Translations under genes and position numbers: made by a program
In this document: piece by piece, positions 480 through 32,977 of the stretch
Layout: each line of letters begins with the position of its first letter
Position numbering within the stretch: position 1 is the stretch's first letter
Assembly (NCBI RefSeq): GCF_003918875.1
Contig: NW_025767044.1
Location: 558,001-622,000 of the forward strand
Direction of reading: 5' to 3'
From: Haliotis rubra
Lineage: Eukaryota
DNA length: 64,000 bases
The notes under the pieces: generated by a model
Seen by the model: only the letters and a program-made list of their open reading frames with translations
Told to the model about the DNA's origin: nothing
The model's database searches: none

Positions 480-1100
480 CTTCAAAACGTAATGACCATA
501 TGGGTATGAAGCCAATTATCCCAACTCCAGTTCCGTGATATCAATCAGTCCAGTTAGTGAAATCATTATGAAACATATATACGTTTCAGCTACTCTAGAT
601 AAGTGATCATGAATCCACCAACAATGTCAAATTCACTGAATTACTCTGCCGAAATCACCTTCGTCAACGATATTTTGAAAGAAACTGATTTCGAGAAGAA
701 TCTCCCAAATTCACAATAATAGCAATGGCATGTTTTCAGAAAGACATCTATTGTATCTCTCCATCAAATATTGCACACATTGGCATTGGTTCAACTATCA
801 TGTTCCACCAAATGTCGTACGTAAATGGCCGTTGTAACTGAAAACACCCGAGGAATTGTAATGTATATTATTGTGATGCGAAAGATTGTTTTCATAATTT
901 CTTAAACTAGATTTCAGACGATGTTTTGAATCAACAACTGTTTGAGTGTGGTGGATTATATTCATTTATGTTAAAATAAAACACATAAATGAACGGCTTG
1001 TAACGTTTTTGAAATGGCAAAGCGTTTTCCATTAAATATGCAGAAGCTTTTACAATACGTCAATCAAAATATCATTTTTAAGTCACTGATTTGACACGTT
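480..1100 (+). repeat. Inverted paralogous copy of segment C of the decayed family
   Basis: ccatcaaata...aaaacacccgaggaattgtaatgtatattattgtgatgcgaaag (761-885) aligns in the same orientation with 35151-35280 and inverted with 7650-7950 and 39990-40300. Confidence 0.7.
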
Positions 1101-1649
1101 TAAAATGTCTCTCCAAGGCAGTGTTTAATTATACAGTTTATGCTTTCTTTAACCCCTGTCCAAATATTTCATTTAAGATACAGTGATTTGGGATGCATAT
1201 GTAAGTATATATAGAGGATCACCGTTATATATGACATACACGTAATACGGCTCCTGTAAAGTACTGGAGACAAAGTGGGCTTCAGGCTCAGGTGATTCCG
1301 CGTCATCGTACCCCAAGGGTGTGGATATTTGCTCATCACTTAGTCGTCTGGACCAGAATCCATTATTTTCAGGCCGTAAACTTCTAGCTTGCAACACCGA
1401 CCAAAACAGACAAAAGGGGAGTGAACACTTCATTTCATTTTCACCTTCAGGAGGGTGGTGCGTGTCGCTCCCCTGCACACCCTCTGGATCCGCCTGTGTT
1501 GTTACGTATAATCACCTTTATTTTATTGTGAAAGATATCTATATATAGCAGATCCATGTACACATTAACCCGAGCGCTAAGCGCTAAAAACCGCAAAAGA
1601 GTGGAAGTCTCGTACGTCTAAATTAGGATGTGGTTGATAGTAGCCACTC

Positions 1650-3150
1650 CTCTCATTACTAGAACTGTTATTACAGCCAGGTACGCCATCTCAAGACAAC
1701 GTTGTGGATACACCTCTGGACCAAGTCCATTGTCCAATGCATACAGCGACCTCGGTAATTACTGGCCAGTAAATCATCCTGAAACCAGAATCCAGGCGTG
1801 AATCGTAATGGACATTTTTATGAGGTTCGCAGAAAAAAGTACTTTTATCTTCAGATCCAACTCGTCTCAGACATACCGAGCAATCAATTTGACAAAAAGC
1901 GATAAAAGACAGAATTTCAACGTAAATCAAACTGCACGTAATACTTCACAGTATTTTGCCCAGTTTAAAGTCTGTTGATGGCTATATATTTGAGACACGT
2001 CTCCCTCTGATGATTGAGTTTCCGCTTCGTCAAAGCAGTCCTTCATGAACGGAGAATTTAGCTTTAATTCACCACAGAAGTTAGATATATACCAATATTC
2101 AAAATTAAAATTGAGCTATATCAATTTAGCTTTCCAATGGAAATAATATGAGATACTCTAAACCTTAAAAGCTTGTTCCCTAAGATTGTCCCATTATAGC
2201 AATTCAAAAGCAATGTCATTGCATCATGTTTTACGATTCCACATACTTTTCACTTTGTCGTACTTTCAATAGTTAATGTTTTATTGTCTCTTCGGGGTAG
2301 CATCGAAGCACAAATATACAATTGCTGTAGTGTACCAATATTCAGTTCAAAGTGCCACCTGGACATGGACATGAAAACTGATAGACGTGTGTTCGCCTTG
2401 CAAAACGTGATCATTATGGATTTTCTAAGATTGAAAGAAGACAGTTCCAATTGTCTTTATGTGTTATTTTATGAAGAAAACATAACTGTACATGTTGCTG
2501 AGAAGCAGATCATTGTATTAGAAGATCACAAAGGAAACAACTTTTGTCTATTACATATGATTTAGTGAAGCCTACGCATCGGTGCCCAAATAACTGTCAG
2601 TCAGTATATCATCTGTACAGGTCCTTTGTATTGTCCGATATCTCGTTTTCCTTAAATACCGGTGTATTATTATTGAAATAAAGTATATATTAACTCACAC
2701 AATTTTATCGAGTATCTGGTTTATCTGAATTCACTATTCTGGGTCTAGATCATATGCTGTTGTTAGTTATGGGTTTCATTTTATTATCAATTATATTTGA
2801 TGTGAAATATATGCTTCCGTTTATTTGTCTCTGGATTCTACCATTCTTGTTCTTCTGGGAAACACACCGAAGTGATTCATTGTCTAATTACGTTACAGTG
2901 TAACTATTTTAAGTGACACAATATTCGGACAAGATAGAGGTATAACGTTAAGGTATAACTAGTTCAACTCATCATTAATAGTGTGAATGCTGCTGAAACA
3001 AATAAAACAACATATATAATTTCTCAAATCCTTGAGTGTCAAACTCACAGAATATACTGCAGGACGATTCTGTGAAAAATACAAATAAAACGATCAGTTA
3101 AAACAGGCCCGGATAATTATATACTCAAAATAAATGGTAAACTTGACACC
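1650..3150 (+). repeat. Tandem segmental copy 1 (segments D-E) of the decayed family
   Basis: 1650-2095 aligns with 10675-11110 and 41230-41610; 2180-2900 aligns with 13105-13500 and 14230-14620. Confidence 0.8.
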
Positions 3151-3189
3151 AACATGATTGGTAATAATTTTGAGGTGGTAACTTCCTTT

Positions 3190-3690
3190 ACCCCACACGT
3201 ACGACAATGACATGTAGTGCCTAAACTGATGCAATTTCAACCTGCTTGTTAAAGATGGTTCAGTGGGACAGGATAAACTTCAGTCACGCTCCACATTGTT
3301 CCTAGCAGGGCACATTATAGTGTTCATTTGGTTGACCGATTTGGAGGGGGAAGTGCATTTTGTGCCAATCCCAAATGAATGTCGTCCGGGGAATCATACT
3401 GCCATAAGGTATCGGGACCAAGATTTGACCCTATTCCTTTTATCATGCATGCAGCTACATGATCCAACTTCATTGTCCCCATACTACTAATGATACCATT
3501 GTTGATGGCATGGACTAGTTTTTCAGGTCTCCAGATTTAAACACATTTTGGATGAGCTCGGAAGACGACTGTGACGGCCGATGAATCAACCCTAGACCCT
3601 GCATGAACTTGGGCAATCGGTCGTTGACCAACAGCAACAACTGAGAAGACGTTGTGTTTCCGATCTGGGAGGTCACACTTGTTATTGACT
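3190..3690 (+). mobile_element. Highly decayed Tc1 transposase relic (C-terminal part)
   Basis: Broken translation FGGGS...RYRD...SPDLN...DELGRRL*RPMNQP*TLHELGQ...LRRRC...GGHTCY*. Confidence 0.7.
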
Positions 3691-6335
3691 TCTTCTGTTC
3701 CAACAGTTTAATCAAGTTCTCGTTGGGGAGTCATGGAATGTCATGCATAAGTTGATGTCCCAATCCACATGATAGCAGAATTATGCACATACATTTTCAT
3801 AATCATACACAGAATACTTCGGTTGGGGATTCAATGGAACAAGTGTCATCGTTTCAGTTTGGCTGAATATACGTATAATAAACATAGCAGCAGTACTAAC
3901 GTATTGAAATACCAACTACCCACTGAAGAAAATGTGTTCAGGCTGCACTTGTTATGATTTTTCCCGGACATGAACTCTGAGTTTCCTTCGTTCACTGAAT
4001 GGCAATGTGCATTTTCCAGCTGCAGTTCACGAATTTTATATAACTGTTCCTGACGGCCCCATACAAACGAAAGTACACAGTCGTGAAAATAAAGTATACA
4101 TAAAGTAAAACCATATAGATGTCATCTATTCCTCCTCTTTATCTCAATAGTTTCACTGCAGTGGCGAGTCTCGCGATTCTGAAACGGAGAATGGATAACC
4201 AACAGCAGCTTGTCGATAACGATAGCTTTCTGCTGTTGAATTGAACATCTGAAAGGTATTCACATTTACGTCTAAATGTTGGTCAAAAGTTTACGAACAT
4301 ATAGAATCACGAAATATATCGATTATCGAAGATGGCTGCATATATGTCAAAATGTATCAAGTGGCAAAAAGCCACTCTGGCCAGATAGAATATTACTGAC
4401 ACTAATGACAACAATTGCAAAGTGGAAAGCGATAATCATCATCACTAACCTCTCCGGGATAAGGTCAGGGAGAAGCTACTTTCGTCAGTGGAATGTTGTA
4501 GTTGTCGGGAGTGAGTGATGTAAGTCATGACAGACCTGGCTCAATCACTCTTCCGGAAGAAGTAGGTGACAAGTGGGAAAGTCATCAGACTAAGGTGATC
4601 AGCACCATTCAGATCAACCAGCGTGGCACAAAACAAACGACAAGAGGGACAGGATATCATGCAAAATTTACTGCAGGGGGCGTCAATGACATATACAAAT
4701 GGACTATATCATTCCATGGGCTTGGGACCATGGCAAAAGACCGTTAAGATGATATCGCATCCAGAGACATTTTGCTCGACCTGGGCTGAGGGAAGACATC
4801 GGATAGCGACGGTCATTACACTTGCCAACATTTAAGGTTACCCGATACATTACCAAATAACTGTCGTTAAGAATAGAGTTACGAATACAGACTAAGTATC
4901 TTGATATCAAAACCATACCTCAAAATTTAACTTTATTTGAAGTAAAGCTATTGCAAAATCCCAACTCTGGTTAATGCTTTTCATTCAATGAAAATTCATG
5001 CCGGTTTGTAGCCAGTGGAACTTAACCTCTTAATTTTATTTCAGATGAAAGGAAGTATAGTTTCATTCAATAAAATCGGAGGTAATTTATCAGTCTCGAC
5101 ACTTTTGATAATTGGGAGGAAAAAGGATGGTGACGCTGATGGAGATTGTGAGGGCATAGACATTGTTCATTGACATGGGATGTGATTGTTCAAGTGAAAG
5201 GCAAGCGAACAAAGAACAAAGAAGCATCGATCCCCAGTTTCATTACACTTGTATCTGTATATTAAAATCCGTTGCCAATCACAGTAGCGCTTTATCCTTG
5301 TTGCTGGTAATATGGTGAAAGGTAAGACGTATATAGCATACATTTTTACTCAGAGTCATGTCAATGATTTTAAAATTTAGCTTGAAACCTTTCGGGGTTT
5401 TTAATCTTCGAAGAACAAACGCTCCAATTTAAATATACTAGCTTGGTGCGTAGCCTCACTTAGACCATGTTATATTCATATCTAAGAAAATCCCATAAAA
5501 ACGTTTCTCTCAATTTAAACATTTGTCCGTGTGTGAAATATTAGACAATAAAATGGTGTTTTTGACATTTTCCTTTAGGATATATTCTGATGTGAAACAA
5601 GTCCTGCTTAATTATAGATCAAAAGTATATATGCATATCATAAGAAGTGCGTTTGCCCTATCTGTAAAACGACTTCTGGACAATAGTCAGTAACCTTTTC
5701 TGCATAACTCTTCACAACTGAATCGGCATTTAAGTGAGCGTAACAAATGTAAACGTTTGTCTTGATCTGGATCGGTCTCCATAAACGAGTCTCCAGGGCC
5801 CATATAGCCGGTCTGGTCCACTAAGCGACTAAGTAAGCAGAGATGATAATACCAACTTGCAGACGCATTTGCATGAAAATGTTTGGATGATGTGTTACAA
5901 TCACAGCCAGTAACACCTAATTACAGTGACCCATTAACTCTCACATAAACCCTCAGAACCACTGTCATTATGTGGCCAGTCATTTCAGAAAAACGATTAG
6001 TACAGTGTAAGTCTTTGGATGACTAAAAAGAGAATTCATGGATATCAACTTCTTTCGTTTGAGGTAGATAACGTTTCTGCGTATATGCTTATCCTTCGTC
6101 GGGTGAATGAAAGCTGGATGTAAAAGTCACAGTTTCCGAACATATCATCAAAAACAAAGTCTGCTCTATCATGTGGAAAGCGTTCTGCGTCAAATGATTC
6201 TACAAAAGATCACCGTTGTCAAGAGATACCAACCATCAATGAAACGTGACAAGGGAACATATCTACCTGTGCTGCCATTCATATGTCGAAATCGAAGCCC
6301 CGGCTCCTCCACCCCTGTCCCCTCTCACCCTCATA

Positions 6336-6492
6336 GGGGCGGTGGGGTAGTCTAGTGGTTAAAGCGTTGGCTCGTCACGCCGAAGACCCGGGTTCGAATC
6401 CCATGAGTGAAGCCCATTTCTGGTGTCCCCCGCCGTGATATTGCTGGAATATTGCTAAAAGCGGCGTAAAACCAAACTCAGTCAGTCAGTCC
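6336..6492 (+). mobile_element. tRNA-derived SINE family 1
   Basis: A box (tagtctagtgg), B box (ggttcgaatcc), (cagt)n tail, 10-bp TSD caccctcata (6326-6335/6493-6502). Confidence 0.9.
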
Positions 6493-7194
6493 CACCCTCA
6501 TATGATATAATTATTTTACAGAAGTTCACATTTGCAATTGTCGTGTCTCTCGTCATGTTTAGTGATTCCTTGATAATGTATTGTATTAAAATACTACCCC
6601 AAACCTCATGCGTTTTCATTGTTTTGTGACTTAGATGAGGAGTGAAGATTGGTGATTATATGCGGGTGAATTCTGAGATTAACTCATAAATGAATCACAT
6701 GTCTAAATGTAATATACGTCTGATACAGCACCTGTTGCGCCGAATTTCCCTGACATAAACAACACATGCACGTGCGGAAACAATATGGTTTTGGACTTAA
6801 TCTGAGATAACTCAGGAAGGCCTATTTCCCGTAATGTATCAGGCTCTCATAGTCCCAAGTACCTAACACTGACTATTGACTAAAAATGAAATATTAATGG
6901 ACGTATAATTGTAAAAGCTCCTTTACATATACCAGAAAAGGCCTTCCCAATGCCCTTCAAAAATCAGAAAAAAGCCGTGTTAAAAATACGTTACGGACAA
7001 AGCCATCATCAATTTCACTCTCTGCATATGTAATGTTTCATACAACATTCATATCTTGGACTTGTTAAATGTAGAGTGAACTTTTATTCACGAAATCAGG
7101 GACGCAAACGTGTACATTACGATGATTAATAGTACAAACACTCGGATGTTTTGAATTACAACCTCTCAAAGTTCATTTTTTTCATGTGATGGGT

Positions 7195-7636
7195 TCCTGA
7201 GAAGGTACGTCAGTCCCAAAACATTCAAAATCAGTTTAAATCTATCCAACCTTTTTAGTCGTAGAATATGTGTCTTTTTAATGTATGGCTAGATGTGTCT
7301 AAATTGCTAACAGCTGAAGGGATGACGTAAATCCAGCTAGGGTCCATGCAGGAAGCAAATGTACTGTAAGTCCCCATGGTCCCTGATATGGTGATCTACC
7401 TTCAGTTGTTGGCAATCTATAGCCTGTTTGTACATATTATTGTCATTTCCACTTAAATTTTTTAGATTTAATTACTAGTTTTAAATGGATATCTGTGATA
7501 CATTAGTAGTTTTACTGTTCTTCGTCCACGGGCTTTTACTTTCTAATTTTATTGATCTATGATATAATCATTTATTGTTCTCGTCACGGTGTGACTGAAA
7601 TATTGCCGATGTGACGATAAATATTAACTCACTCAC
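7195..7636 (+). mobile_element. 3' tail of Nimb/I-type LINE (non-coding 3' UTR fragment)
   Basis: Same sequence recurs at 18293-18563, 31921, 34327, 52958, 54742 and 61558, ends in (actc)n, and is linked to LINE ORF2 C-terminus at 18690-19190. Confidence 0.7.
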
Positions 7637-8492
7637 ACATGTGATAGGAAAAATTGAATGCTTTCGAAAGGCATTTCATATTTGATGGTTCGATGCTGTA
7701 TCGATCCGTTACAAAAAATCTCCAATGGCTCTCGCAATCCTTCGTGACATCACTCCCTGCCAATGCTATGTCGACGAAGTCTACTAGCGTGGAGTAATTA
7801 AGGAAAAGTAATACAATAACTGAATTCATGCTCTGTTGTCCCGTGTAGATGAAACGTCTGGTTTACGACTGGGCTGACAGATATCTCTGCACTGAATGAC
7901 TGCGGGGATATATAACCGCTACTTTTGACCCTGTTCTTGTCATTGGCTTGGAGACTTGTAGATCGTTAACGTTAGAATGATGGATATTGAGCTGATTGGT
8001 GAGATTGGGTAATGAGGATTTGTACCGTGACAAGAGACATCGTTCCGACCATATAATGCCATGATAATTAGAATGGGTTCACACAGTGTAATCACGTGGG
8101 GTATCAGCATCATAACAAGCGAATGTTTGGACAACTAAAACAAGATACCGCCCTAGTTGATTTACCATCCAGCAGCCATTTAAAAGGGATTCCGAATCGG
8201 ACGCACCCTTAAAATAGAGGATCCTTGGAGCTAACGAAACAGTCCAAAATGATCTATGTCCCCGACGTTTTGCACTAGGGAACCCAACACACAAGAGTAT
8301 GGTGCTGACAAACCTAGAAACAAGAGCAATGCAGCACTATTGGCTGTATATGGACTTGCAATGTGTTACTGCACGTGCAGCCTGTGCAGCTGCACACAAC
8401 ATGCGAAACTCAGAAATTGCTGTCACTGTCGAAAGCTTGATCTTTGGTCATTCAAACGTTCACAAATTCACATGGGAATTCACATGCACATC

Positions 8493-8844
8493 ATGCCAAA
8501 ATTAACATCTGCTCAACGTCACGAAACCATTGGAATGGTTCGAGCAGGCATGAGCCATCAACAGGTGGCAGCACATTTCCAATGCCACCGTAACACGATA
8601 TCTGCATTGGTCAGTTGTTATGGAAACAGTAATGACGTCGCCGACCACCCACGTGTTGGGCGTCCCCGAGTAACGACACCAAGACAGGACAGATGGATTC
8701 GGGTGAATTATCTCAGACACAGGTTCCAGACGGTAGTGACCACATCCCAAACCATTCCCCAGGCCTTCAATGCTCATTTGGTAGCCTATATGCGTCGTCG
8801 ATGCACTGCTTTGCTTCACGCGTGATGGTCATACCCGTTATTGA
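8493..8844 (+). mobile_element. Internally deleted Tc1 element (HTH domain fused to extreme C-terminus; element spans roughly 8300-9046)
   Basis: MPKLTSAQRHETIGMVRAG...GRPRVTTPRQDRWIR...TIPQAF..LVAYMRRRC...GHTRY*; whole DDE domain absent. Confidence 0.8.
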
Positions 8845-9928
8845 CTTTGTGACTTCGTCGTGTGACCCCCTACTCAATTTTGAACTTCTGACGTCATCGT
8901 TACGGATATTGTTCATGTTCTTTTGACATGTTGTTGTGGCCCGATACTTCAGCTTATAAAGTGTCTACATCATTTCGTCTTTTCTGTGTTGTATTCCAAT
9001 TCTGAAGGACTTTTCTGTGTGCACAGTTTCTTTATGTGGCTAGTATATATTCCTCCGTTAAAGGAAAGACACAAATTGCTTGCACTGAAAAACACTCCCT
9101 GAAGACTGTGACTTATATTCATTATAATGTTGAGTGTTCGACAGGCGCTCCCGTCAGAAAAGCTATGCTGTGTATAGAGCCTTATTGTATAACGGGCCGG
9201 TGGCCCCTTTACCGAATGAAGTCATTTTATCAACCTAGAAATAGGAGCTAGGATTCGAACCAATGACTACGTATACGAGTCTCTTGCTCGCAATGATGAT
9301 GGTAATTTCGTGAAGAAAATCTCAGCAATTCGTCGACATCCGAATGGCCAGGATAAAAACATTTGACATACAAGATGATCCAATGTAAAAACACAAAATA
9401 TCTCGTCACTCTGGTCAAGTTGGTCAAGGGTTGACAAAGTTCTACGTATCTCTTTTAGTTAATTACAGTTTCAACTGGGATGATTATTATGACGATTATT
9501 TATTAGTAGATAACTGGAAGGGTTCATACCGGTGTTATCTCAATGATAAAAATATTTCTGGGAAAGTTATTTTAACTGGTCAATTTTTCTTTCCGCTTTC
9601 ATCTTCTGTTTCCACTTCATCATTGCTTCCGTTTAGTGAAATATTATCTTTTACGGCCGATACATGTCACTTGCTGAAGGATTCGGAAAAGACCACAGTA
9701 GGTTATGCTCCATTTTTATTAGTTTGCTTTTCAACAGAGAACACAGTGGAGCGAATGGCGGAGGAGGTTTGCCTTCTAAAACAGGAAGAAGTAACCTTAG
9801 CTATTGTCTCGTGTTCTGATTGCTACTACTTGCCCTACTGATGCCATAATAGTGCTATTGAAGACAATGTATTCCATAATGTATGGAAAACAACTATAAG
9901 TTTGTTTTCCTTCTTTTGTTGAATATTG

Positions 9929-10108
9929 AACCAGACAACCCAGTGATGAACAGCATGAGCATCAATCTACGCAATTGGGATACGATAACATGTGTCTACC
10001 AAGTCAGCGAGTCTGACCACCCGATCGACTCTTACGACGCCACTAGTTAGTCGCCTCTTACAATAAGCATGGGTTACTGAACATCAATTCTAACCCGGAT
10101 CTTCACGG
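9929..10108 (-). mobile_element. SINE family 2 fragment
   Basis: Reverse complement of gaagatccgggttagaattga...gaggcgactaac...gatcgggtggtcag...cccaattgcgtagat, shared with 23578-23802 and 32753-32977. Confidence 0.8.
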
Positions 10109-13100
10109 TTTCACAATCACCTATAACGAGCAGTATTTGGTTGCTGTAAAATACGGGATCTGGGGGTTAGGCTTGATGATCATGTTGATGTCCGAACCAT
10201 CGCATCCCTATCTGTGGATCTTCGTTCATGATGTCAACAACACCGAGTTGTCTGGGCCAGACAGAGTTATCTTCGGGCCGCAAACATAAACATCACGCGC
10301 ACGCGCACATCACATTACACAAACACATAGCTACATGTTACAAACATTTTATGAGGTTTCCAGAAGAAAATCATACTTAGACCTTAAGGAAGTCTCAGAC
10401 ATACCGAGCAATCAAATTGAAAAAAGAAGATAAAAGACAGAATTTCCACGTAAATCAAACTGCGAGTATTTACACATATATACTTATATGATACATGATA
10501 TTTGTTTTCATGTTGTATGACTGACGGTTTATGTGTCATATCATAACCTTGAGCTTTTTGTGAAAGGTGTCTGCGCATGAAGCATTTAAACACTAAATCA
10601 ACTTAAATAAAGTCAATAGATGTGCTAAACAGTGCAAAAGAGAGTAAGTCTGATAAAGGATATAGGTTATATACCATGAACTGTTATTACAGCTAGGTAA
10701 ACCATCTAGATGCAACGATGTGGATGAAGTCCATTTTCTAAAGAAAACACCGACTCCGGCAATTATCGGTCAGTAAATCACCTTGAAACCAGGAACGAGC
10801 CGTATACAGCGTAATGGGCGTTTTTTATGAGGTTCCCAGAAGAAAAACGTACTTTCCTCTCAAGATTCAGCACGTCTCAGACATACCGAGCAATCATATT
10901 GAAAAACAAGATAAAAGACAGAATGTCCACGTAAATCAAACTGCAAATAATACTTCGCGGGATTTTGGCCAGTTTAATGTCTGTTGATGGCTATGTATAT
11001 GAGACAAGCCTCTCTGGGATGATTGAGTCTCTGATTCGTCAAATCGGTTTTTGTTGAACTTATATTTTAGCTTCCACCTTTTACAGAAGGAACGTTAGAT
11101 ATATACCAGTTTGGAAGTGTTTTGACCTTACAAAATCATTTGCCATATTAACATCATTGCATTATAGCCGTTGTAAACATTTATAGTCTTTTTTATATTT
11201 TAAATATTTCCAAAAGCATCAGCCTTTTCCAAATTAATATTGTACATCTCTTACAGTCGTTTTGATTTGTTTGATTTTTTTGATTTTTTTTTTGGGGGGT
11301 GTGTGTTATTATTATTTTCTTTTTACATTATAAATATTTCATATTTCCGTAGTATAATAGAAAATTTAAACTACACGCTATTATCATTTATCTTGATACG
11401 AAAACACTGCTTGAATATACATAGTCTATTGTCTTTTTCTATCTCTATCAAGGCAAATGAACGCCTGTGTTGGGCATATGTTATCAGGTGGAAAAACCAT
11501 GAACTACGCCATTAGATCACATGTGGCATTTGGGACGAAAATATCTAATCAATCATGTTTCAAATGTTTTGGTAATTGTGCCTGTTGAACAGTAACTTAA
11601 ACATGCTGCGCATGTTGGTACATCAACAGACCGAGGACAAAGCGCGATGATATAGCTGTGTATACGAATATTTCGTGGATGCATTTGCATAGAAGAGTAC
11701 ATGTGCATGTCTGACTAACGGTTATTCATACAATATTCAAACATATAGTCTAATCAATAATTACAAAACAGTATTAGATTACATGAAAACTTTCCAACCG
11801 CTACATGAAATAATTGCAAAAGCAAACTCCTTCCTGTCTGTGACAAATGCTCTTCAACTAGAAGGTCTTGTCAGATCACTACATTGTAAATATCATCGCT
11901 TGTCAAGCAAAATGACTGTTTACACTTTTCTAAAGCACAGATTATAAGCGGAGTTTTATGGCAGCAAAGCCGTCCCGGCAAAGATCCACACTGAGTGCTT
12001 TATTTGGAAGAATTGTTGTTTGCACGCTCAGGTCATTAATTGACAAAGAGGCCCAAAGGGAATGAAAATGAAAAAGAAATTTATTTCGATGAAACATTTC
12101 AGATACTCTATTTGTTTTGAAAAAATGTTGAAAGCGATTTATTGATAAAAATATCAGTTTGGGGTCAGTGATTTTAGGGCCACAATATAAAGAAATGACT
12201 TATAAGCATGTCCATGGATGCTGTTCAGCCAGCTGAATTCAAGTTATATCGTGGCGGATTTTAAAACATCTAGTCTGGAACAGAAAATAATTAGTGGATG
12301 AAACCCGAGCACATCAGCTGTTCTGTTACACACAGTAACCGAACATCTGATTCCCTATCCTACACCTCAAGTCTACCTTCTCGACTGAAGACCTTTTAAT
12401 CATACAATCTCTCATCTTGCTCATACAGCTTACTTTACAACCTCAAATGCAACTTCTTATTTATACCTCATTTTACATTCGCAACCTTCAGTCCAACTCC
12501 AAATTGCAAACTTTTCCGTCAATTCTAAATCTGCTTAGCCTTCTCATCTAACTTCCCATTTAGTCCTTCTACCTTCCATCTCAACCTAACAATCAAAAAC
12601 CTGATTGTATTCCCACATTACAACATCTGTTCACACCCAAACACACATGTATGTACAACCTCTAATCTAAATCTAAAAGCTACAACCTCTCTCTCATATG
12701 CTTTTAAGCCCTATCTTTTAAACTCGCAATACTTTTTGATGGAGATGTATTTATTCAATCATACGATTGCATAGTATTTACCTGTGTCCATATTGTCAGT
12801 GGGTTAAATGTAATCAACGGTCAGCTGCGTCTTTTCTTGTTCTTTCCATGATTCTGATTCTCTGCCTGCGAGCGCAATTCTTCCATTCACCAATCCCGGT
12901 GCTGATCCCAGTTTGAAAGCGATCACCCAAAAATTATGCTTCCCGCAAGAAGTGTCTAAACGGATTGGGTGGTCAGACTCGGTTGACTGCGTAACATTTG
13001 CACGCCAACAACGTGAATCGCTGTTCGCGATCGTCACAGCCAGCCCAGCATGTAGCTGGAATATAGAGGCATATAAAACTCCAAATTGTAACAGTTTCGT

Positions 13101-13524
13101 CGCTAGGATTGTCCAATTATAGCAATTCAAAGCAATGTCACTTAATCATTTCTCGTGAAAATTTTCACGTTTTCAAATATGTTTTCAACCTTGTCACAAT
13201 TCTTATAAATTATGTTTTATGTATGTCCCTTTAGGGTGGTGGTATCGAAGCACAAACCAATAATTGATGTAGTTGCATGTAGTTTCTAAGATCATTAAAA
13301 ATATTGACGCCTGAAATTAGAAGTTTTTCGTCCTATTTTAAGACTTTTCTTTATTACTGAGTGAATGAGGAGTACCATTGGGAAATCAAAGCAATCGTTA
13401 TAAAATGCATGTCAAAAGCACAGATTTTGTATTTTTCATTCACACAATCTTAGAATGAGAGTTTCAATAAGTGTGAAAAGAATCAATATCAGAGAGTTAC
13501 TGTCAGATCCATCAATTCTCTGCT

Positions 13525-14177
13525 CAGCAGTACCATTATATTTCTTGTGAAGATGATTCTGTAACTATTTATCATGTACAGAAGTACCATTATACTCCTT
13601 GTAAAGACGATTCTGTAACTCTGCTTATCATGTTCAGCAGTACCATTATACTCATTGCGAAGAAGATTCTGTAACTTTATTTATCATGTTCAGCAGTACC
13701 ATTATACTGCTTGCGAAGAAGATTCTGTAACTTTATTTATCATGTTCAGCAGTACCATTATACTGCTTGCGAAGAAGATTCTGTAACTTTATTTATCATG
13801 TTTAGCAGTACCATTATACTCTTTGCGAAGAAGATTCTGTGACTTTATTTCTCATGTTCAGCATTTCCATTATACTGCTTGCGAAGAAGATTCTGTAACT
13901 TTATTTATCATGTTCAGCAGTACCATTATACTCTTTGCGAAGAAGATTCTGTAACTTTATTTATCATGTTCAGCAGTACCATTATACTGCTTGCGAAGAA
14001 GATTCTGTAACTTTATTTATCATGTTCAGCAGTACCATTATATTGCTTGCGAAGACGATTCTGTAACTTTATTTATCATGTTCAGCAGTACCATTATACT
14101 GCTTGCGAAGCAGATTCTGTAACTTTATATATCATGTTTAGCAGTACCACAATATTCCTTGCGGAACAGATTCTGTT
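13525..14177. repeat. Minisatellite, 56-bp unit, ~11-12 copies
   Basis: Unit cagcagtaccattatactgcttgcgaagaagattctgtaactttatttatcatgtt, e.g. starts at 13691 and 13747; no spacers. Confidence 0.95.
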
Positions 14178-14999
14178 TTTGCTCCTTGATTTCATTTAAT
14201 GCATATACATATATTATATAGATAATATATGTTGATAAAACCAAGACAATTATGTGATACATATCTTCAATATGCTGAATGCGAATGTGATTAAGTGTAG
14301 CCTACACACCGGAGTCCAAATAACACTCAGTTTATCGCAATAGCACATGTAAATAGTCTTTATATTGTTTGCGTCATACTACATGCTAAAATACCAGCAT
14401 ATGTTTATTGAAATAAAATTTGTTATAACATATACTGTCTTATTGAGTATTTTGTCTATCTCAACAGACCATTCTGGATCTAGACGATAAAAAACATACT
14501 GTTGTGACAATTAATGGTTAACTTTCTTTTTCTTTCATTTGTTTCGATTTGCTTTATATTTCTCTGAACTCTGCCGTTCTGGTGCATTTTCTTCCAGGAA
14601 AAACATTAAAGCGCTTATGAATTTTTCAAAGTGGTATTGTTATTTTTATGAGAAGCGACGAGACAGGTGTATAATGTCAAGTAGGTGACAAACAAATTCA
14701 ACTGACCAGTTACGTTGTTAACACTGCAGACACAGTATATATCCCAAAGGTTAAAGTGTCAACCTGAGGGAATTTACCACCTAATAAATTAAATGACTAG
14801 TCAGACAGGGCCAGAACTTATATGAATGATAAATATAGCGGCATTGTCTTATGCAAAGGAACAAGCAGATCTTCTAATCACTAACGAATATGTGTTCACG
14901 TTAAAACTAGTTCCGATTTATCCCAGAAATTCACCCTAACTAGCTCTCTCTCTCTCTCACTCGCTCTCTCTCTCTCACTCGCTCTTTTTACCTCTTTGT

Positions 15000-15995
15000 G
15001 CATGAAAGCTTTTGGTAGATATACTCTTTTAAAACAATATGTACAATAAGACATCCGCATAGTGAGGATATTCACTGCAGACAATGATATATTCACATCT
15101 GAGAAATTTCCAGAATATACATGTTTCTTTCCAACAATGACGCTCGTTCCAGTCTGCGCATCGACGAATCTTGATCAGTGTTTAGTATTATGCACATGTT
15201 TTAAAATTATATCAACATTTCAGTAACAAATTACAATCTTTGTGTTCACCTAAGCATATCTCCGTGTGTGAGCCACTAGCTCCATTATCGAAGGAGTTTT
15301 TCTGGGGATGTCTTTACTGAAAAATAACCCAACGTATACATGTGTGTATCCAACAGTGCGCCCGACCCGACGACAAATGTAAACGTTTATCTGGACAGAT
15401 CTCCTTGTATGAGACTCTAGAACTCATATAGGGGGTCTGCTCCATTAATTGACCAATTCAGTAAAGCTGATAATACCAACATGCACACACATTTGCATGA
15501 AGATGTGTAGAGGATTATGTTACAATCACAGCCAGTAATTATATTGGCCCATCACATAAATCCTCCGAACAATTGTTGTTTTGTGGCTAGTCATTTCACA
15601 AAATCTATGAGTACATTGTAAGTCTTCGAATGGCATTTAGGAGTTATGAACACAAAGAAGATAGTTCACAGATGTCAACGTCTTCATGATGAGGGACACA
15701 ACGTTTCTGCGTACTTGCTTATTCCTTAACCGGGTGAATGAATACTCGGAGGCAGACATCCACAGCTACCGAACACATCATCAACAACCACGACTATCCC
15801 AAAAGGTAGGAAGCTGTCGAAGTTCTGTCCAACACCAACATTTTGGGGCAAAGGTATCTACGAGAGATCATTGACATCAAGAGATAAAACCCAGCTATGA
15901 ACCGTAACCAGAGAACATATCTACCTTGTGCTTGGATCTTATTAAAATGATAACGGAAAAGGTCAAGTCGTTGAAAATACGTTACGAGCAAAACG
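15000..15995 (+). repeat. Further copy of segment B of the decayed family
   Basis: 15370-15935 aligns with 5740-6275 (e.g. acaaatgtaaacgttt; gataataccaac; ttacaatcacagccagtaa; gaacatatctacct). Confidence 0.8.
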
Positions 15996-16004
15996 TGTAT
16001 TAGT

Positions 16005-17422: not shown

Positions 17423-18292
17423 TATATGAAGAGAAGACGAATGGCGCTATTATAGGTAACAAGTGATTTGAGCCTGACCGTGAATTTCCCAAAAGGAAAG
17501 ATGTAGTTGTCTGATTGTATTTCTGAAATTTGAAGAACCAATATCTTTGAGTTTGTTTTTGAAACTGCAAGAAATACCTATTATGGTATCATATGTATAA
17601 TTAAGAAAACAAGACCAATTAAAACGGACAAGGTGATTAAATTATTACAGATGTAAAATGCTTTAGGTCTACTCCGGTTTAATCTTCGCTACAAAATAGA
17701 TCCATTTAACATACATGAGTGAAACTCTGTGACGGAGTCGACCAATTTTGTTCAGATACATGTGTCATAGTCGGAAAAGCAAATTCCATTCTTTGGCAAA
17801 TGCCTTTCAACGAGCTCGTTTCGGGAGGCTACATCTTTGTATGTCATAGCACAATTTTGTTTCAGGTTAGTGAAGCATGTTACTACGATTGCGGCCCCAA
17901 ATTAAATGAGGACATTTTTTTGCCAGAAGATTGCGCCGGTGGCTTGTTTAGAGGAGCTGTTGCTGACCACGCTCTGTGTATTGATTGATAAATCTGTAGC
18001 AATAAGAAAGCACAGGAAATGAAATTGGAAAAGAGGAACTGACGTCCACAAAACATTTAATGTCTGTAAAAAGAATGTTTGAAACGGCGATGGTGTCAAT
18101 GAGAACAATATATTGAGAAAATATAAAGGGAGCATTAAGCAATATCGGATGAGTCATTCTTCACCTCTAACGTAAGAAATGGACATAAGAAATTCCATCT
18201 ATTTCGTGTTAAACTGTACCTGTGAAGAATCTGTGTTTTATATCCTGTCGTTCCGGGCAAAACAATGTGAACAATACATCTCCAGGCGACAA

Positions 18293-18563
18293 TCCTGGTC
18301 CTTAGTATGGTGATCTACCTTCAGTTGTTGGCAATATATAGCCTGTTTTTATATTGTATTGTCTTCTATAGTTAAAAGTTTTAGTTTTTTCATACTAGTT
18401 TTATATCTATACATGTGATCCTCTAGTATTTTTACTGTCCATCGTCGACAGGTTTTACTCTCCAAAATGCTTTCATTCTGTTATTGTATACATGTATATT
18501 GTTTTCGTCACGATATGGCTGAGATATTGCCGATGACGTTAAATATTAACTCACTCACTCACT
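18293..18563 (+). mobile_element. Nimb/I-type LINE 3' tail
   Basis: ggtgatctaccttcagttgttggc...ttgccgatgacgttaaatattaactcactcactc. Confidence 0.75.
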
Positions 18564-18689
18564 CCGGGAGACTACTCCCAAACTATAACGTTTACCCTAT
18601 TATCAACTGACATTTAAATGTACACATATTAAACAATCACCCAGCATAACACACTATAAATGAGTCCAACTCTTCCATTGCATCTAATT

Positions 18690-19190
18690 CCCCATAATGC
18701 AACCTTCCGATCCGAGCAACGCAAAAGAAGTGGGACACTCAGGTAAGTATAAATACGTTACATCAAATAAAACCAACAATTGGTTACACCTACTTTGGTT
18801 GTCAGTCATTAGATTGAGGAGGTCATTATGCGACGATGCTGTACTCACGAATACTTATTGAAAGGTGAGGATCCTCCGTTTGTGTATCCCTTGTGATGAA
18901 AGAATCACGTTCAGTCATGTCCTTCTTGACTGTGTTGAATTTTTCATTACAATGGATAAGTATTTCAGTGTCAAAACGTTAATTACGATTGAATCATTGC
19001 ATTGGTAAAAGAGAATTGATAGATACAGTAAATGTTCTATAATTGGTAATTTAAATCAACAACTGAGATTGTTTGTGGCTGTATTCTCAAAGGAGGTCCA
19101 AAAACATTCAAAGTAAATTTAATCTTACCACTATCTTTAAGCGCAGAATATATGTTATTTTAATTTATGGCTAGATTGTCTAAACTTGCT
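18690..19190 (+). mobile_element. Nimb/I-clade LINE ORF2 C-terminal relic plus start of 3' UTR
   Basis: Broken translation IKPTIG...EEVIMRRC..THEYLLKGEDPPF(fs)IPCDERITFSHVLLDCVEF: CCHC knuckle typical of I-group ORF2 ends. Confidence 0.75.
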
Positions 19191-19702
19191 TACAAGTCTA
19201 CAACCTCCCCATCTTCCAATGTGACAACCGACCATAATTGCTTTGAGGGAGTCAGTCATCCATTAATGATGATGTGGTCTCGCACTGTTTTTACATCACT
19301 GTGACAGACGTCATCAATCTTCAGTTGTGACCCGTCTTATTCCTCATCAATGACGTCAACGTCAGTATACCTTTTCTTAAGACGTGAAAAGTCTGGCCGT
19401 TCCAGAAGCCTGGTGATTCCGGATCCTCAGCATCATGTCCTATACATGCGACTAAGTGGACGGGTGGACAGACACGGTGACCCCGTCGACAGCGGGGATT
19501 CTTGCTCACAGCATCAGCATACCTGGAATGTCTGGTCCAAGTTCGTGCATGTTACAGGCTGCATAAATATGTAGCTGGAACATTGCATTGTTAACCAAAT
19601 TTGGGAACGAATTTAAGATATATAATTGACATTGTTCATTGTTGTTCACTGTTTTTAACGTCAACATCTGTTTATCACATATTTTGTCATTATGAAAATA
19701 AG

Positions 19703-19872
19703 ACTGACTGACTGACTGAGTTTGGCTTTTCGCCGCTTTTAGCACTATTCCAGCAACATCACGGCGGGGGACACCAGAAATGGGCTTCACACATTGTATC
19801 CATGTGGGGATTCGAACCCGGGTCTTCGGCGTGACGAGCCAACGCTTTAACCACTAGGCTACCCAACGGCCC
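19703..19872 (-). mobile_element. tRNA-derived SINE family 1
   Basis: Full-length copy, TSD atgaaaataag (19692-19702/19873-19883). Confidence 0.92.
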
Positions 19873-20615
19873 ATGAAAATAAGAACTTTACCATAAGTAC
19901 TATAAGCTTTTGTTAATTGTTGCAATTCAAATGCAACAGCATAACTTTATCATTTCTCAAGATGTTTCTCAACCATACGATTTATGTCTTTGTTATTTAT
20001 TTCTATGGACAGTAGAACTTGATTCGTGGCCCTTGGAGGAACTATTGAGGCACAAAATTATAGTTGCTGTAGTTCACAAAAATAAATCAAAGCACAAGAA
20101 GAATGAAAGTGAATGTATTCTCAAACGGATAGAAACAAATAGGTGTTTGTTCTCTTGACAGAGATATGTCAGCATTACGGGACTTTTACAAGAATAAAAA
20201 AGCACCAATTCAATTATCTCTATTAGTTGTGGGATACAAACGCAACGCTGCTAAAAAGTCGATGACAGGCACTTGATTGCGTTACTAGATCACATTCAGG
20301 AGACTCGAAGAGCTTGTACTGACACCTGGAATTGAAACCCTGCATGTTGTAAAACTTACTTGGATCAGTGAGTAAATGAGTAGCACTATTTGGAAATCAA
20401 CGTAATAGTTTTTGGAATACATGTCCTGATCGCTAGCAGCATGCAGACTGCTCCTTTCCACATCAAATGAAGTCTGTTAAGGGGCAGATGGAGTGATTCC
20501 ATGTGTATATACAATAGACATATTGCTTAGGAGCAGATAGTTCTCTGGAGGAGATGTGCATGGGGTGTATGTGAAAGTGACCTTTCTATACAGTCTAAGT
20601 AAACTTAGACTCAGT

Positions 20616-22880: not shown

Positions 22881-23577
22881 GACCTGATGTCACTCTCAAA
22901 ATCAGGACGTTGAGTAACGCAAATCGCTAAAACTTCTCCCCAAGCCACGCACATCTATTGCAGCTGTGCTCAAGGAACTTTGATTAATTCGTCAATAGCA
23001 AACCATCCTATTATTGATAGGGTGCCCTATGGTGACTTGGAAACACTGTACTGGTGGTTGGAGCCGGCTCCCGATGCATAAGAATAAAAACAAGTAATGT
23101 TGTCAGAGATAATGCAGTGACATTGAAACCATATTACCTACATAGTAACTTCTTCTTACAGGATCTTGAGATAATAAGTACTCACTTTTGTGTGTTGTTG
23201 GGTTTGGGGTTTTTTAAAAAAATTATTTGGTTTATGTATAACATATTTACAATTATTGACATACAAGCATAATAAACCTTGTACACACTAATGAAAAAGA
23301 GTTATCGTTACAACTAGTTCATACAATTCACTGACGGTAAGATTACCTACTTGGAATCAATAATCAGTTCAAGGCGATTTCATTATTTTCATTTATTCAT
23401 GTTCAGTTTAATTCGTTGTTGCCTTTCGCCCTGTTGAAAAGCCCTTAAGTGAGAGGATAACTAAAACCCATATGGACATTATGCTAGATAACGACCAGAT
23501 GCCATCCTCCACGCCTCGGAACGTCTGGAACATATAGAGTCTTTCGTTTCCGAAATACTTTTAGAAATCGTTTTCTA

Positions 23578-23802
23578 CCCGGGTTAGAATTGGTCTCCAG
23601 CAACACATGTTTGTGGTAAGAGGCGACTAACAGGATCGGGGGGCCAGGCTTGCTGACTTGGTTGACACATTTCATCAGTTCCCAATTGCGTAGATAGATG
23701 CTCATGCTGTTGATTACTGGAGTATCTGGTCCAGACGCGATTATTTACAGACCGCCGCCATATTGCTGGACTATTGCTCAGTGCGGCATTAAACATAAAC
23801 CA
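23578..23802 (+). mobile_element. SINE family 2, left-arm-specific insertion
   Basis: Family-2 body ending gctggactattgctcagtgcggcattaaac; absent from the mirrored site near 51255. Confidence 0.85.
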
Positions 23803-24067
23803 AGACGCTATATATTTCCTCACAACAACATAAAAAGTTAAACCAATCAAAATTGCAATATGAAACCTGTGTAAAAGTAACTACTGTGAAACTTATATTT
23901 AACTTATGCTACACATAGTAGGGAATTACGCATTAAACAAACATTGCCATTTGACTTTGGTGATTATACTAGACTTTTATTCATAGATGCCAGACAGACT
24001 GCAAAATTCTACCGTTACGTGGGCGACAGTGTTCCTTTGATAATGCCATGATAAGTATCTACATGTA

Positions 24068-25269
24068 CAGTACAACCAGAAATTATTGAGAATTTAAAGA
24101 TTGTAATTTATTTTTTTTTTCACTCATTACTCACGTATTAAATGTGAATATTAGCAGAACATAACTCCAGATTCAAAGACAGGTGAACAGTTAGTATTTT
24201 GTCAAGTCACCATGGGCAGCAATGCAGGAGGCTTCAATTCGGCGGGGCATACTACTGATCAAAGAAGTCCCCAAACATTTTCTATTGGATTTAGGCCAGG
24301 CCTATAGCTTGGCCAATCTAATAATGTCATATTTTGGGTTCGAAACCAGGCCTGTGAATGCTTTGAACGATGTTTTGGGTCGTTGTCCTGCTAGAAAATC
24401 CAAAAATTTCCATAGAACACGTGAGCAGATTGAAGTAAATGTGCCTCAAGAATATCTGTGTACCGCTCACTGTTCATATTCCCTTCAAATACTCAGAGGG
24501 GCGTTGGCCCTAACACAGATATGCCACCCCACACGTTAAATTTCGGACTGTACTTTGGGCGCTGATACAAAGGTTTTTCAGTTTGTTTGGTCCAGAATTT
24601 CAGTGTATTAGGAAACAGCCACACAGAATTTTCATCTGAGAAAATCACATTGTCCCAGTTAAAATCTCTATGCTGTAAGCACCAGTTCAACCTTCGCTCC
24701 TTTTGTACAGGTTTCATGATCGGTGATGGAATTCCTCGACTTTTCTGCCAACCCATTGCATGCAGCTCAGTTCTAATTTTCTCCTTACAGACAGCCACAG
24801 TTCCTCTATCAAGCATATCCAACCTTAAGTTTTCTAAACTCCTTCGTTTGTTTTTAGAAACAAGAATAACAAGCCGCCTCCTGTCACCGGACAGTCAATT
24901 TTCTGGGCCTACCTGCGCCTCCCTGGTGCTCAATGCCATATCCATTTGCAATATTTTTCAAAACACGATAAACAGTGGACAAAGGGATGACTGTTCTACT
25001 TGAAATCACTTTAGGTGATCTAATGTCCTTGTTATAATACTCTAAAATCAACTTCCTCTTCTCTAAATCATCCATACTGAGGATCACTGAAAATGTCGTC
25101 TGCTAGTAAGTACACAAAGGGGGATAACTCTTCGCAAACTAATGAAAAAGGATTAACGGAGTTGCCTCTCTTGAATGAAACCAAGCACTTGATAGCTGAT
25201 CAAGGTTGTTTATACTAAAAATCCAATTAAACATATTCCTAAAATTCTCAATAATTGCTGGTCATACTA
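24068..25269 (-). mobile_element. Tc1 (DD34E) element, copy with ~100-bp internal deletion and frameshifts
   Basis: TIRs cagtacaaccagaaattattgagaattt / aaattctcaataattgctggtcatacta, TA TSD; close sister of 55182-56478; empty site in right arm at 51022. Confidence 0.95.
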
Positions 25270-27074
25270 TATCTACATATACAGCCTAACTGCGCAATAC
25301 AATTCTCCAAAAGGATGTTTTATGTACAAAACTATTATCCAAATAAAAAACAAATTGGTTTGACATTGTAACCTGAGCCTAAAATCGATGTAGGAATCCA
25401 ATCTGTTCCACCTACACATTCACGACACATGCGTGTGTCAAGTCCAGAGCTTGCCCAGAGGAAGAGTTTTGTCAAAGAGATGTATAGGGGAGACACGGCG
25501 CCGTGACCTACATGCTGAACATATGCAGTCGGTTACATGACACCGCAGCCATGTAATGAATTAGTTTCTGGGATCACCCCCAGTGGTATTGTAATGTTAT
25601 TAATGGGACAGTTGGCCGTGCGTGGGAGGGACAGTTCGGTGGGGTAGTTTACCTAAAATCAGAGTCCTTGGACCAGGTCTCAGCGGCGTGGAACATGTTC
25701 ATTATCTATACTGAGTGCGGTGCTAAAACAAGACACACAAAAACCCTTATTATGAGTGTATCGATCATATGAGATTGCATCCTGAAGAACAACTTAGTGT
25801 TCCCGAATTACTCGGGCCGAATTTATATATATTACAAAGCAGATTGTTCTAGTTATAGAACTTTATGAAGTTATGTAAGTCATCTTGTTTATCAGTTCCA
25901 CTCTACCTCTCGACAAACACATTCATCGTTTACATCTTCCAACATACATGGGGGAGTTTGAAGAATAGCTAACAAAACGAATGTTTGTTTATGCATTGAG
26001 AAAACCATAACTCGTGAAATATCTTTTCAAATATGCCAGTGTCAGGTTATTTAAAGATACAGTATCGATTCGCATGTACATATCACTCACATGCCATAAA
26101 GACTCTTGATCAACGTATATTCAACCTTTTAAACCAATTAATCACATTTGACGTCGGCGAACATGACAAATATAAATATTTCTCCTGATATTGTAACTTA
26201 AACTTTCATCGTTTGTGGGACATAAATACTATATCAGGAATTGGTTTCATCTTATTGCCAGTTAATGAAAACGATAATGCCAAATTGTCGGCGCGTTGCC
26301 AATGAAGTCTTTTGATGTTTACATTACGACCACAGACCGTCTCGCCTTATCCAGTGAACCGATTTGCTGCATGATAAACTCTCACTGTATTTCTCGCTTG
26401 TGGCACCTTAACACCTTGGTGGTCCTAAAAAGGTTTGTGTTTGTCTTGTGCGATATTTAGTCGTAAGGATTTGGCAAATGGTAACTTATTGAAAAGGAAA
26501 AAAGTAACGGTGTGTGTGCCTGTGCGTGTGTGTGTGCGTGTGCACGCAAGACAGTTAACAGAGATCTTGAGGAGAGGACAGTCCTTATGTTTTCCATACC
26601 TATATACATGTGTATAGACAAACATGCATGTCCTAGTCACACTTAACATCACAAAACATGAACATCGCGAATTATTAAATGGTGTGGACTTTTATTCCAA
26701 GTAAGCCTACGTCGCAGGTTTATCCTTAGGTTCACGGTTTATATTGACAGTTAGTTTAAACCTTACGTTCGCTCATGAAATATCACATGTGTTGTTTGTG
26801 TAGTAAAGAACCAGTTGTATTCCTTTCAGGACGCACTGTACTTTGCTGATGTGTGTGGAGGGGCGGCAACAGGGGTGGGGAAGGAAGGGACGAGATCGTG
26901 ATCAAGGTACCAGATCTTAACCCGTGCTAATGCGGCATTATGATGTGGTTTCATAAATAAATACCTAACACAAACAGATACACATTATAAACTTGAACAT
27001 AAACAGAACAGAAACAGAACAGAACTACAACGTATATAAAGAACAGGTAGTGTTTGCCCAGTTTAAGGTTTGAT

Positions 27075-27289
27075 NNNNNNNNNNNNNNNNNNNNNNNNNN
27101 NNNNNNNNNNNNNNNNNNNNNNNNNNNNNNNNNNNNNNNNNNNNNNNNNNNNNNNNNNNNNNNNNNNNNNNNNNNNNNNNNNNNNNNNNNNNNNNNNNNN
27201 NNNNNNNNNNNNNNNNNNNNNNNNNNNNNNNNNNNNNNNNNNNNNNNNNNNNNNNNNNNNNNNNNNNNNNNNNNNNNNNNNNNNNNNNN
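27075..27289. other. Assembly gap (215 N)
   Basis: Run of N. Confidence 1.
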
Positions 27290-28054: not shown

Positions 28055-28202
28055 CTCAGTTACGTTGGTTTTTGCAATATTCAGCAATATCATGGCGGGA
28101 ACACCAGAAATGGGCTCACCTACTGTACCTATGTGGGGAATCGAACCCGGGCCTTCGGCGTGACGAGCGAACGCTTTGGACTACTAGGCTACCCCACCGC
28201 CT
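28055..28202 (-). mobile_element. tRNA-derived SINE family 1 (diverged)
   Basis: acaccagaaatgggct...ggggaatcgaacccggg...ctaggctaccccaccgc. Confidence 0.85.
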
Positions 28203-32752: not shown

Positions 32753-32977
32753 TGAGTGTGTGAGTGAGTGTAGCTTTTCGCCACAATCAGCAATAGTCCA
32801 GCTATATGGCTTCGGTCTTTAAATGGACCAGAGAATCCAGTGATAAACATCATGGGCATCGATCTACGCAGTTGGGATACGATGACACGTTTCAACCAAG
32901 TCAGCGAGCCTGACCATCCGATCCCGTTAGTCGCCTCTTACGACAAGCTTAGGATGCTGATTATCAAGTCTAACCCG
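32753..32977 (-). mobile_element. SINE family 2, left-arm-specific
   Basis: Reverse complement of family-2 body with (actc)n tail; absent from mirrored site ~42810-42850. Confidence 0.8.

What the first reader, a model, noticed from the sequence alone, without database searches (positions are those of the whole stretch)
480..16000. Unidentified decayed sequence family amplified in tandem and inverted copies, identical in kind to the palindrome core
Seen: segments A-B-C-D at 4140-11110 have the same order and orientation as 38000-41610. Extra copies occur at 1650-3150 (D-E), 10345-10470 (part of D), 15000-15995 (B) and, inverted, at 480-1100 (C). By eye the copies are ~60-75% identical and none has an intact ORF. 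Parallel translations give protein-like consensus pieces: LPE..GD.W....KVIS...K..TRGTGYHA.F (A), YRGSAPL.D...DNTN..THLHE.V...QSQPV...HINPQN.C..VASHF (B), KLNA..R.FI.DG.MLYRSV.K.L (C, several synonymous differences between 7650 and 40080), FIFRSN.S.TYRA......DK..N.HVNQTA.NTSQ..GQF...DGYIYET (D). I do not recognise a transposon or host gene family in them. Inference: relic of a multi-kb intron-poor coding sequence (lineage-specific gene family or endogenous viral element) that was repeatedly duplicated locally.
Basis: partly seen in the sequence, partly recalled or inferred. Interest (0 to 1): 0.7.

Follow-up and report, generated by a model that had tools for sequence, protein, structure and literature searches.

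The report
Gene-free abalone local duplication cluster
This stretch of an abalone genome was copied again and again next to itself, forwards and backwards, over about 200 kb; the copies show no trace of protein-coding constraint and match no known protein, so it is most likely ordinary decaying duplicated DNA rather than a lost gene family or virus.

Summary
Segment A has 20 copies over contig positions 421-597 kb, and genome searches found the family only on this contig. Differences are equal at the three codon positions (0.334/0.345/0.346). Period-3 signal appears in 6 of 2578 cluster windows, as chance predicts, against 132 of 1462 in the neighbouring glycoside-hydrolase array. A profile search of 1.84 billion proteins gave only a singleton, frameshifted look-alike and two repeat artefacts. 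Half of 'segment B' is a dead Penelope retroelement shared by two copies, and a dead Tc1 is shared upstream of A, so at least these duplications copied DNA that already held dead transposons. Verdict: an old, repeatedly re-duplicated, most likely neutral segmental-duplication cluster with a 28-kb palindrome. A coding ancestor that died before amplification is not excluded (low-power test, p=0.13). The scan noted a different gene-less triplication elsewhere in this genome (e1-9524443).

The parts
499..1066 (-). Segment C copy, inverted
   Evidence: nhmmer to 39810-40368, E=1.6e-23
1493..2110 (+). Segment D copy
   Evidence: colinear with a copy 33 kb upstream, 81% of aligned columns
2155..2922 (+). 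Segment E copy and its continuation
3260..3700 (+). Decayed Tc1-type transposase 3' end, shared with the copy 32 kb upstream and probably with four inverted upstream units
   Evidence: hits to Tc1 ORF copies at E 5e-12 and 2e-9; Pfam itself gave no hit on this relic
4454..4921 (+). Segment A copy (core 4472-4690, about 46% GC); 20 copies in the cluster
5569..6005 (+). Segment B core
6010..6290 (+). Penelope-like relic (inverted terminal repeat plus endonuclease tail), copy 1
   Evidence: 74% to copy 2
6324..6491 (.). tRNA-like dispersed SINE, later insertion
   Evidence: 50 local hits; tRNA family hit on a sister copy at 52056-52124
7197..7639 (.). Dispersed repeat, later insertion
7639..7939 (+). 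Segment C copy (5'-truncated at the repeat)
   Evidence: E=7e-20 to 40066-40384
8253..8825 (+). Tc1-like transposase N-terminal fragment, later insertion
   Evidence: HTH_23 over cut-off
10344..10468 (+). Short local re-duplication of part of D
   Evidence: 89.7% over 117 columns
10492..11110 (+). Segment D copy
13078..14484 (+). Segment E copy split by a 56-bp minisatellite (13524-14176, 11.7 units)
15367..15615 (+). Segment B core
15620..15940 (+). Penelope-like relic, copy 2: inverted, decayed hammerhead-bearing terminal repeat (15620-15760) and GIY-YIG endonuclease C-terminus (15762-15938)
   Evidence: (150 matches from 1428 candidates)
17675..20426 (+).
23475..37743 (-). Left arm of the palindrome; holds inverted D-C-B-A at 33212-37743
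38110..51357 (+). Right arm of the palindrome; holds A-B-C-D at 38110-41805; the arms are 82.6% identical on average, with patches of 93-96%
62555..62870 (+). First exon of a GH3 glycoside-hydrolase gene array (8 exon-1 copies); used as the positive control, not part of the family

Best explanation
The segments are pieces of one multi-kilobase block that was copied many times in tandem and in inverted orientation within about 200 kb of one abalone contig, and the copies have most likely decayed neutrally as non-coding DNA. Shown: local restriction, nested copies of very different ages, absence of a codon signal, and transposon relics shared between copies. Inferred: the mechanism is recurrent unequal crossing-over and inverted (fold-back or template-switch) duplication, each new copy giving substrate for the next; the high-identity patches between the palindrome arms are most likely arm-to-arm gene conversion. 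What the founding block was before the first duplication is not shown; intergenic DNA with old transposon debris is the simplest reading.
For: Local only: D DNA 6 of 6 matches, D protein 5 of 5, A DNA 7 of 7, A protein 14 of 14 and E protein 3 of 3 on C2154; C protein 4 of 5 (the fifth at E=0.52). The same search finds dispersed relatives when they exist (150 matches from 1428 candidates). Read depth over A-D is at single-copy level in three organisms. Locally duplicated DNA makes up 19-87% of each 20-kb bin of the cluster, against 12% in a control region. The tree of 20 A copies runs from 0.0035 to about 0.4 changes per site, with gamma shape 7.7 (near-uniform rates) against 0.96 for GH3 exon 1. 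Codon-position differences in A are 0.334/0.345/0.346, with dN/dS 0.76-1.02 in all six frames; D is flat and B, C, E, G show no consistent third-position excess. Period-3 windows: 6 of 2578 in the cluster (0.25% expected) against 132 of 1462 downstream. A Penelope relic is shared by the two B copies and a Tc1 relic is shared upstream of A. The A core beats its flanks in only 5 of 8 sister pairs (sign test p=0.73). No GH3 or GPCR exon relic was found in the cluster.
Against: 4 of 24 blocks reached nominal p of 0.005-0.035 in the block-wise period-3 test (z 2.4-3.0 against 22.4 and 5.7 for the controls; the pairs are not independent, and one block holds a Tc1 relic). Each segment has one stop-poor frame, with p 0.007-0.076 under a simple null; this fell to a combined p=0.13 with real DNA as ancestor and the copy tree, and that test separates the two models poorly. 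A was nominally more conserved than its flanks in 2 of 8 pairs (p 0.02-0.05) and less conserved in 1. Family cores are a few points more alike than the embedded transposon relics (80 vs 74% and 81 vs 77%; p 0.06-0.18). Small single-copy exons of a gene spanning the cluster were not tested.
Confidence: 0.8

Rival explanations
1. The founding block was a long intron-poor coding element (unknown transposon, endogenous virus or orphan gene) that died on or soon after arrival and was then amplified as junk, so no codon bias exists between copies but one frame stays stop-poor.
For: Stop-poor frames on the + strand in A (2.2%), D (3.4%) and E (2.8%) against about 5% in the other frames; observed minima fall near the dead-ORF simulation; one A copy reads about 170 codons in a single frame with scattered stops.
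Against: Combined p=0.13 under the realistic null. No homologue for A in 1.84 billion representatives except a singleton 68-aa frameshifted look-alike. None for A or D among longer proteins, for A in the PDB or for A-D in Pfam. None for C in viral contigs or for D in phages (best E=0.7). No relatives elsewhere in the genome.
Confidence: 0.12
2. The cores (above all A) are multiplied regulatory elements or small-RNA source loci under weak non-coding constraint, serving the flanking GPCR gene or the GH3 array.
For: A is the only segment found in nearly every unit and is GC-richer (46-54% vs 37-41%); it holds two CCGGAA words that resemble ETS sites (motif recalled, untested); D and E cores reach 94% and 88% in single pairs; a similar gene-less triplication with conserved islands was noted elsewhere in this genome (e1-9524443, unchecked).
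Against: The elevation is pair-specific: the D core stands out between the arms (93.8%) but not in three other pairs, which fits conversion (a fifth pair was used to define the core and is not independent). A's excess is not significant, its rates are near-uniform, and there is no Rfam match at gathering score.
Confidence: 0.06
3. A fast-evolving gene family under positive selection (like abalone sperm lysin and sp18), where dN/dS near 1 hides the codon signal.
For: Abalone carries such tandem families (PMC9022041, passages read); positive selection can flatten codon bias (established knowledge).
Against: The lysin family maps to contig C2434, not C2154. The copies carry stops and frameshifts at different places. 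Indel lengths are not enriched for multiples of three (for example 31 of 109 in A and 41 of 273 in the arms).
Confidence: 0.02

Closest known systems
Intrachromosomal segmental duplication clusters (low-copy repeats), including those reported for abalone chromosomes (PMC12627906, passages read)
   Same: Nested local copies over 1 kb, in both orientations, of many ages, shared by related species.
   Different: Most copies here are 60-85% identical, below the usual 90% definition, and no duplicated gene was found in them; whether this contig lies on one of the three duplication-rich chromosomes could not be tested.
Large palindromes with arm-to-arm gene conversion (primate sex-chromosome type; PMC8327919 seen as search listing and start of abstract only)
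   Same: Two arms of 13-14 kb around a 366-bp spacer, with over-dispersed identity and patches of 93-96%.
   Different: The arms are only 82.6% identical overall and no gene was found in them, so conversion has been rare and no protected gene family is seen.
Penelope-like retroelements, endonuclease-bearing type (PMC8557442, passages read)
   Same: The 3' halves of two B copies match dispersed elements with a GIY-YIG-type C-terminus and a hammerhead-core terminal repeat, inverted at the 5' side as described for truncated insertions.
   Different: This explains only about 300 bp in two copies; A, C, D, E and the B core are unrelated to it.

Membership tests
Segmental duplication cluster | Duplicated blocks over 1 kb at low copy number | tested here: met
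   Blocks of 1.4-5.8 kb; single-copy read depth
Segmental duplication cluster | At least 90% identity (operational definition for recent duplications) | tested here: inconclusive
   Met by upstream blocks (90.8-98.1%); not met by the copies in the finding (59-86%), which are old duplications
Segmental duplication cluster | Mosaic content, with transposon relics copied along with their flanks | tested here: met
   Shared Penelope and Tc1 relics
Protein-coding gene family or its pseudogenes | Excess of third-position or synonymous change between paralogues | tested here: not met
   4 of 24 blocks nominal only
Protein-coding gene family or its pseudogenes | An intact or homologous parent gene | tested here: not met
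   own genome; protein collections; word-limited searches are weak evidence
Protein-coding gene family or its pseudogenes | Ancestral open frame | tested here: inconclusive
   Combined p=0.13, low power
Endogenous viral element | Similarity to viral proteins | tested here: not met
   C against viral contigs, D against phages, A against 1.84 billion proteins; B, E and G were not searched against viral sets
Endogenous viral element | Termini or target-site duplications of an integrated element | not tested
   Unit boundaries are eroded; no terminus was defined
Dispersed transposon family | Copies scattered over many contigs | tested here: not met
   A, C, D and E are confined to C2154; only the Penelope part of B is dispersed
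Penelope-like element (15620-15940 and 6010-6290 only) | GIY-YIG endonuclease at the C-terminus after reverse transcriptase | tested here: met
   50-55% identity to dispersed ORFs whose translations show the GIY-YIG-type and RT-thumb motifs (motifs recognised from recall, Pfam gave no confirming hit)
Penelope-like element (15620-15940 and 6010-6290 only) | Terminal repeat with hammerhead core | tested here: met
   Hammerhead core pattern in relatives L091 and L094; decayed and inverted in the window; Rfam did not call it
Egg-lysin / sp18 family | PF01303 match | tested here: not met
   0 of 11 matches on C2154
piRNA cluster or lncRNA locus | Small-RNA or transcript coverage | not testable with these tools
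   No RNA holder listed

The most novel reading that the evidence does not exclude
The cluster is the only surviving trace of an unknown long coding element, such as an extinct virus-like or transposable element of abalones with no living relative in the databases, preserved in about 20 copies because the locus kept duplicating after the element died.
Probability: 0.12. Interest if true: 0.5.

Novelty: new member of a known kind. Interest (0 to 1): 0.13.

Why it matters
As it stands it matters little: it is a clear example of a duplication-prone locus that kept re-copying apparently gene-free DNA from before the split of three related organisms until recently, beside a GH3 gene array that expanded the same way. 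It could serve as a neutral yardstick for duplication and arm-to-arm conversion rates in a mollusc. If the founding block were a coding element with no relatives, the many independent copies would be a rare fossil record of it.

Tried and rejected
Pfam on A-D pieces: nothing over a cut-off. Word-based protein searches with A and D: none. PDB with the A profile: best E=1.7. Profile search of 1.84 billion proteins: 3 hits; P0001 (bacterial inverse autotransporter, 17 weak stretches) and P0003 (Hydra VWA-repeat protein, 7 stretches) were rejected as summed repeat noise, and P0002 is a singleton ORF on a 3.6-kb contig that switches frame inside A, so it reads as another decayed copy. Viral contigs with C and phages with D: none. 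Rfam: only a tRNA-like SINE at gathering score, and sub-threshold hairpin matches. GH3 or GPCR relics in the cluster: none. Lysin/sp18: elsewhere. A first stop-codon test looked significant but was dropped when a realistic null removed the signal. A as a constrained element: not significant. Assembly artefact: rejected, since the arms are 17% diverged and contigs of three organisms cover both arms. Expression: no RNA holder listed; two guessed-RNA runs gave almost no cover, which is no evidence either way. A whole-region six-frame Pfam scan and a protein-atlas search were not obtained, so unexpected domains outside the tested pieces remain possible. Four paper searches turned up no description of this locus; supplements were not read.
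Full report
Setting. The window is G000:C2154:558001-622000 of a 1.38-Gb genome. An egg-lysin family search gave 6 matches over the cut-off on contig C2434, so the host is an abalone; earlier scan notes say the same (unchecked). I read 464 kb around the window. A rhodopsin-family GPCR exon lies at contig 321 kb, and an array of GH3 glycoside-hydrolase genes starts at window 62.5 kb (8 exon-1 copies).

Observation. Mean identities in multiple alignments are 57-70%. The palindrome has arms at 23.5-37.7 and 38.1-51.4 kb that are 82.6% identical over 67 windows of 100 aligned columns. Contigs from runs of three organisms cover both arms at single-copy depth outside the known repeats, so it is not an assembly artefact. 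At the orthologous A site two of them differ from the assembly by about 4-9%, less than the copies differ from each other, so the copies in the finding predate those splits (inference).

Extent. The family is larger than the finding. A DNA profile finds 20 copies of A between contig 421.6 and 596.5 kb and none in the rest of the 464 kb: eight on the minus strand up to 484 kb, eleven on the plus strand from 498 kb, and one inverted in the palindrome. Locally duplicated sequence fills 19-87% of each 20-kb bin from 405 to 622 kb, against 12% in a 140-kb control. Genome-wide searches found A, D and E only on this contig, and C likewise apart from one E=0.52 match. These searches score only the best candidates, but the same tool returned 150 matches from 1428 candidates for the transposon piece in B. 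The tree of A copies runs from near-identical pairs (0.0035) to about 0.4 changes per site, so duplication recurred over a long time.

Is it coding? Three tests say the copies did not diverge as genes. (1) In the A core of 17 copies (3 near-duplicates dropped), differences at the three positions are 0.334, 0.345 and 0.346, and dN/dS is 0.76-1.02 in all six frames. D is equally flat, and B, C, E and G show no consistent third-position excess. (2) Across the cluster 6 of 2578 windows pass a period-3 threshold (0.25% expected), against 132 of 1462 downstream, where the GH3 exons lie. Block-wise, 4 of 24 blocks were nominally significant (z 2.4-3.0) against z 22.4 and 5.7 for the two GH3 controls; I read these four as noise from non-independent pairs and, in one case, a Tc1 relic, but they count against my reading. 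(3) Rate variation among sites is slight for A (gamma shape 7.7) and strong for GH3 exon 1 (0.96). Whether the founder was an open frame before duplication is unsettled: each segment has one stop-poor frame, significant under a naive null (p 0.007-0.076) but not when real genomic DNA and the copy tree form the null (combined p=0.13), and the test has little power.

Homology. A profile of 13 A copies against 1.84 billion proteins gave 3 hits: two long repetitive proteins whose scores are sums of 17 and 7 weak stretches, and a singleton 68-aa ORF that changes frame inside A and so reads as another broken copy. Searches of A and D among longer proteins, of A in the PDB, of A-D in Pfam, of C in viral contigs and of D in phages were negative. 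B, E and G were not put to the large protein collections.

What is recognisable. The 3' half of the B copies at 5.7 and 15.4 kb is a Penelope-like relic: a 140-bp dispersed repeat (316 candidates; alignment) whose relatives carry a hammerhead core, lying inverted before the C-terminus of a GIY-YIG-type endonuclease. PMC8557442 (passages read) describes this inverted, 5'-truncated layout. The arm copies of B lack it, so it inserted in one lineage that was then duplicated. A Tc1 relic at 3260-3700 is shared with the unit 32 kb upstream. It also matches, past the end of the transposase frame and in the same orientation to A, four inverted upstream units; shared descent of these four is likely but not proven.

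Constraint on non-coding cores. A is the most widely detected segment, but it beats its flanks in only 5 of 8 sister pairs (p=0.73); its higher GC content and its place in the most often copied sub-block may explain the detectability (inference). Identity between the palindrome arms is over-dispersed (chi-square 162 on 66 degrees of freedom). The D core is 93.8% identical between the arms but not significantly above its flanks in three other pairs. An extra B piece at 35963-36420 is 91% identical to the opposite arm but 78% to its neighbour. Pair-specific patches fit arm-to-arm conversion better than selection (inference).

Mechanism. Shown: local restriction, nested copies of many ages in both orientations, no codon signal, shared dead transposons. 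Inferred: recurrent unequal recombination and inverted duplication, seeded by earlier copies, with occasional conversion. This is the known behaviour of segmental-duplication clusters, which are reported as extensive on some abalone chromosomes (PMC12627906, passages read). A positively selected family like lysin (PMC9022041, passages read) was considered and rejected.

Verdict. Observation confirmed; coding or viral relic not supported; an ordinary old duplication cluster. Interest 0.13. The remaining novel reading, a dead coding element with no known relatives, has a probability of about 0.12.

Noticed in passing
window 62501-64000 and contig 622-722 kb: Tandem array of GH3 glycoside-hydrolase genes: 8 exon-1 copies, 80-90% identical to the first at the DNA level, with a strong codon signal.
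   Followed up: partly
window 41413-41714, 40108-40220, 50667-50980 against the left arm: Patches of 89-96% identity in palindrome arms that average 82.6%; likely gene conversion.
   Followed up: partly
window 35963-36420: Extra B piece in the left arm, 91% identical to the right arm but 78% to its tandem neighbour.
   Followed up: partly
contig about 484-498 kb (L009-L011): A copies switch from the minus to the plus strand here, suggesting an older, larger inverted arrangement of the whole cluster.
   Followed up: no
window 24066-25272 and 55154-56481: Young Tc1-type transposon copies, about 95% identical to each other and to copies upstream.
   Followed up: no
window 57420-61700, minus strand: Broken LINE-type element (endonuclease and reverse-transcriptase-like frames, recognised from recall).
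   Followed up: no
L016, contig about 548.7-552.8 kb, minus strand: Near-intact DIRS-like element: gag-like, RT, RNase H and tyrosine-recombinase-like frames (recognised from recall).
   Followed up: no
window 13524-14176 and 49826-50388: Young minisatellites of 56 bp (11.7 units) and 80 bp (7 units) inside family segments.
   Followed up: no
window 37337-37460: Short palindromic dispersed repeat inserted in the left-arm A copy.
   Followed up: no
L071-L089, L091-L095: Very abundant Penelope-like family with a hammerhead-core terminal repeat, often in inverted pairs; Rfam does not call the ribozyme.
   Followed up: partly
contig about 700-707 kb (L024-L025): Polinton-like frames (DNA polymerase and capsid-like, recognised from recall) inside the GH3 array.
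   Followed up: no
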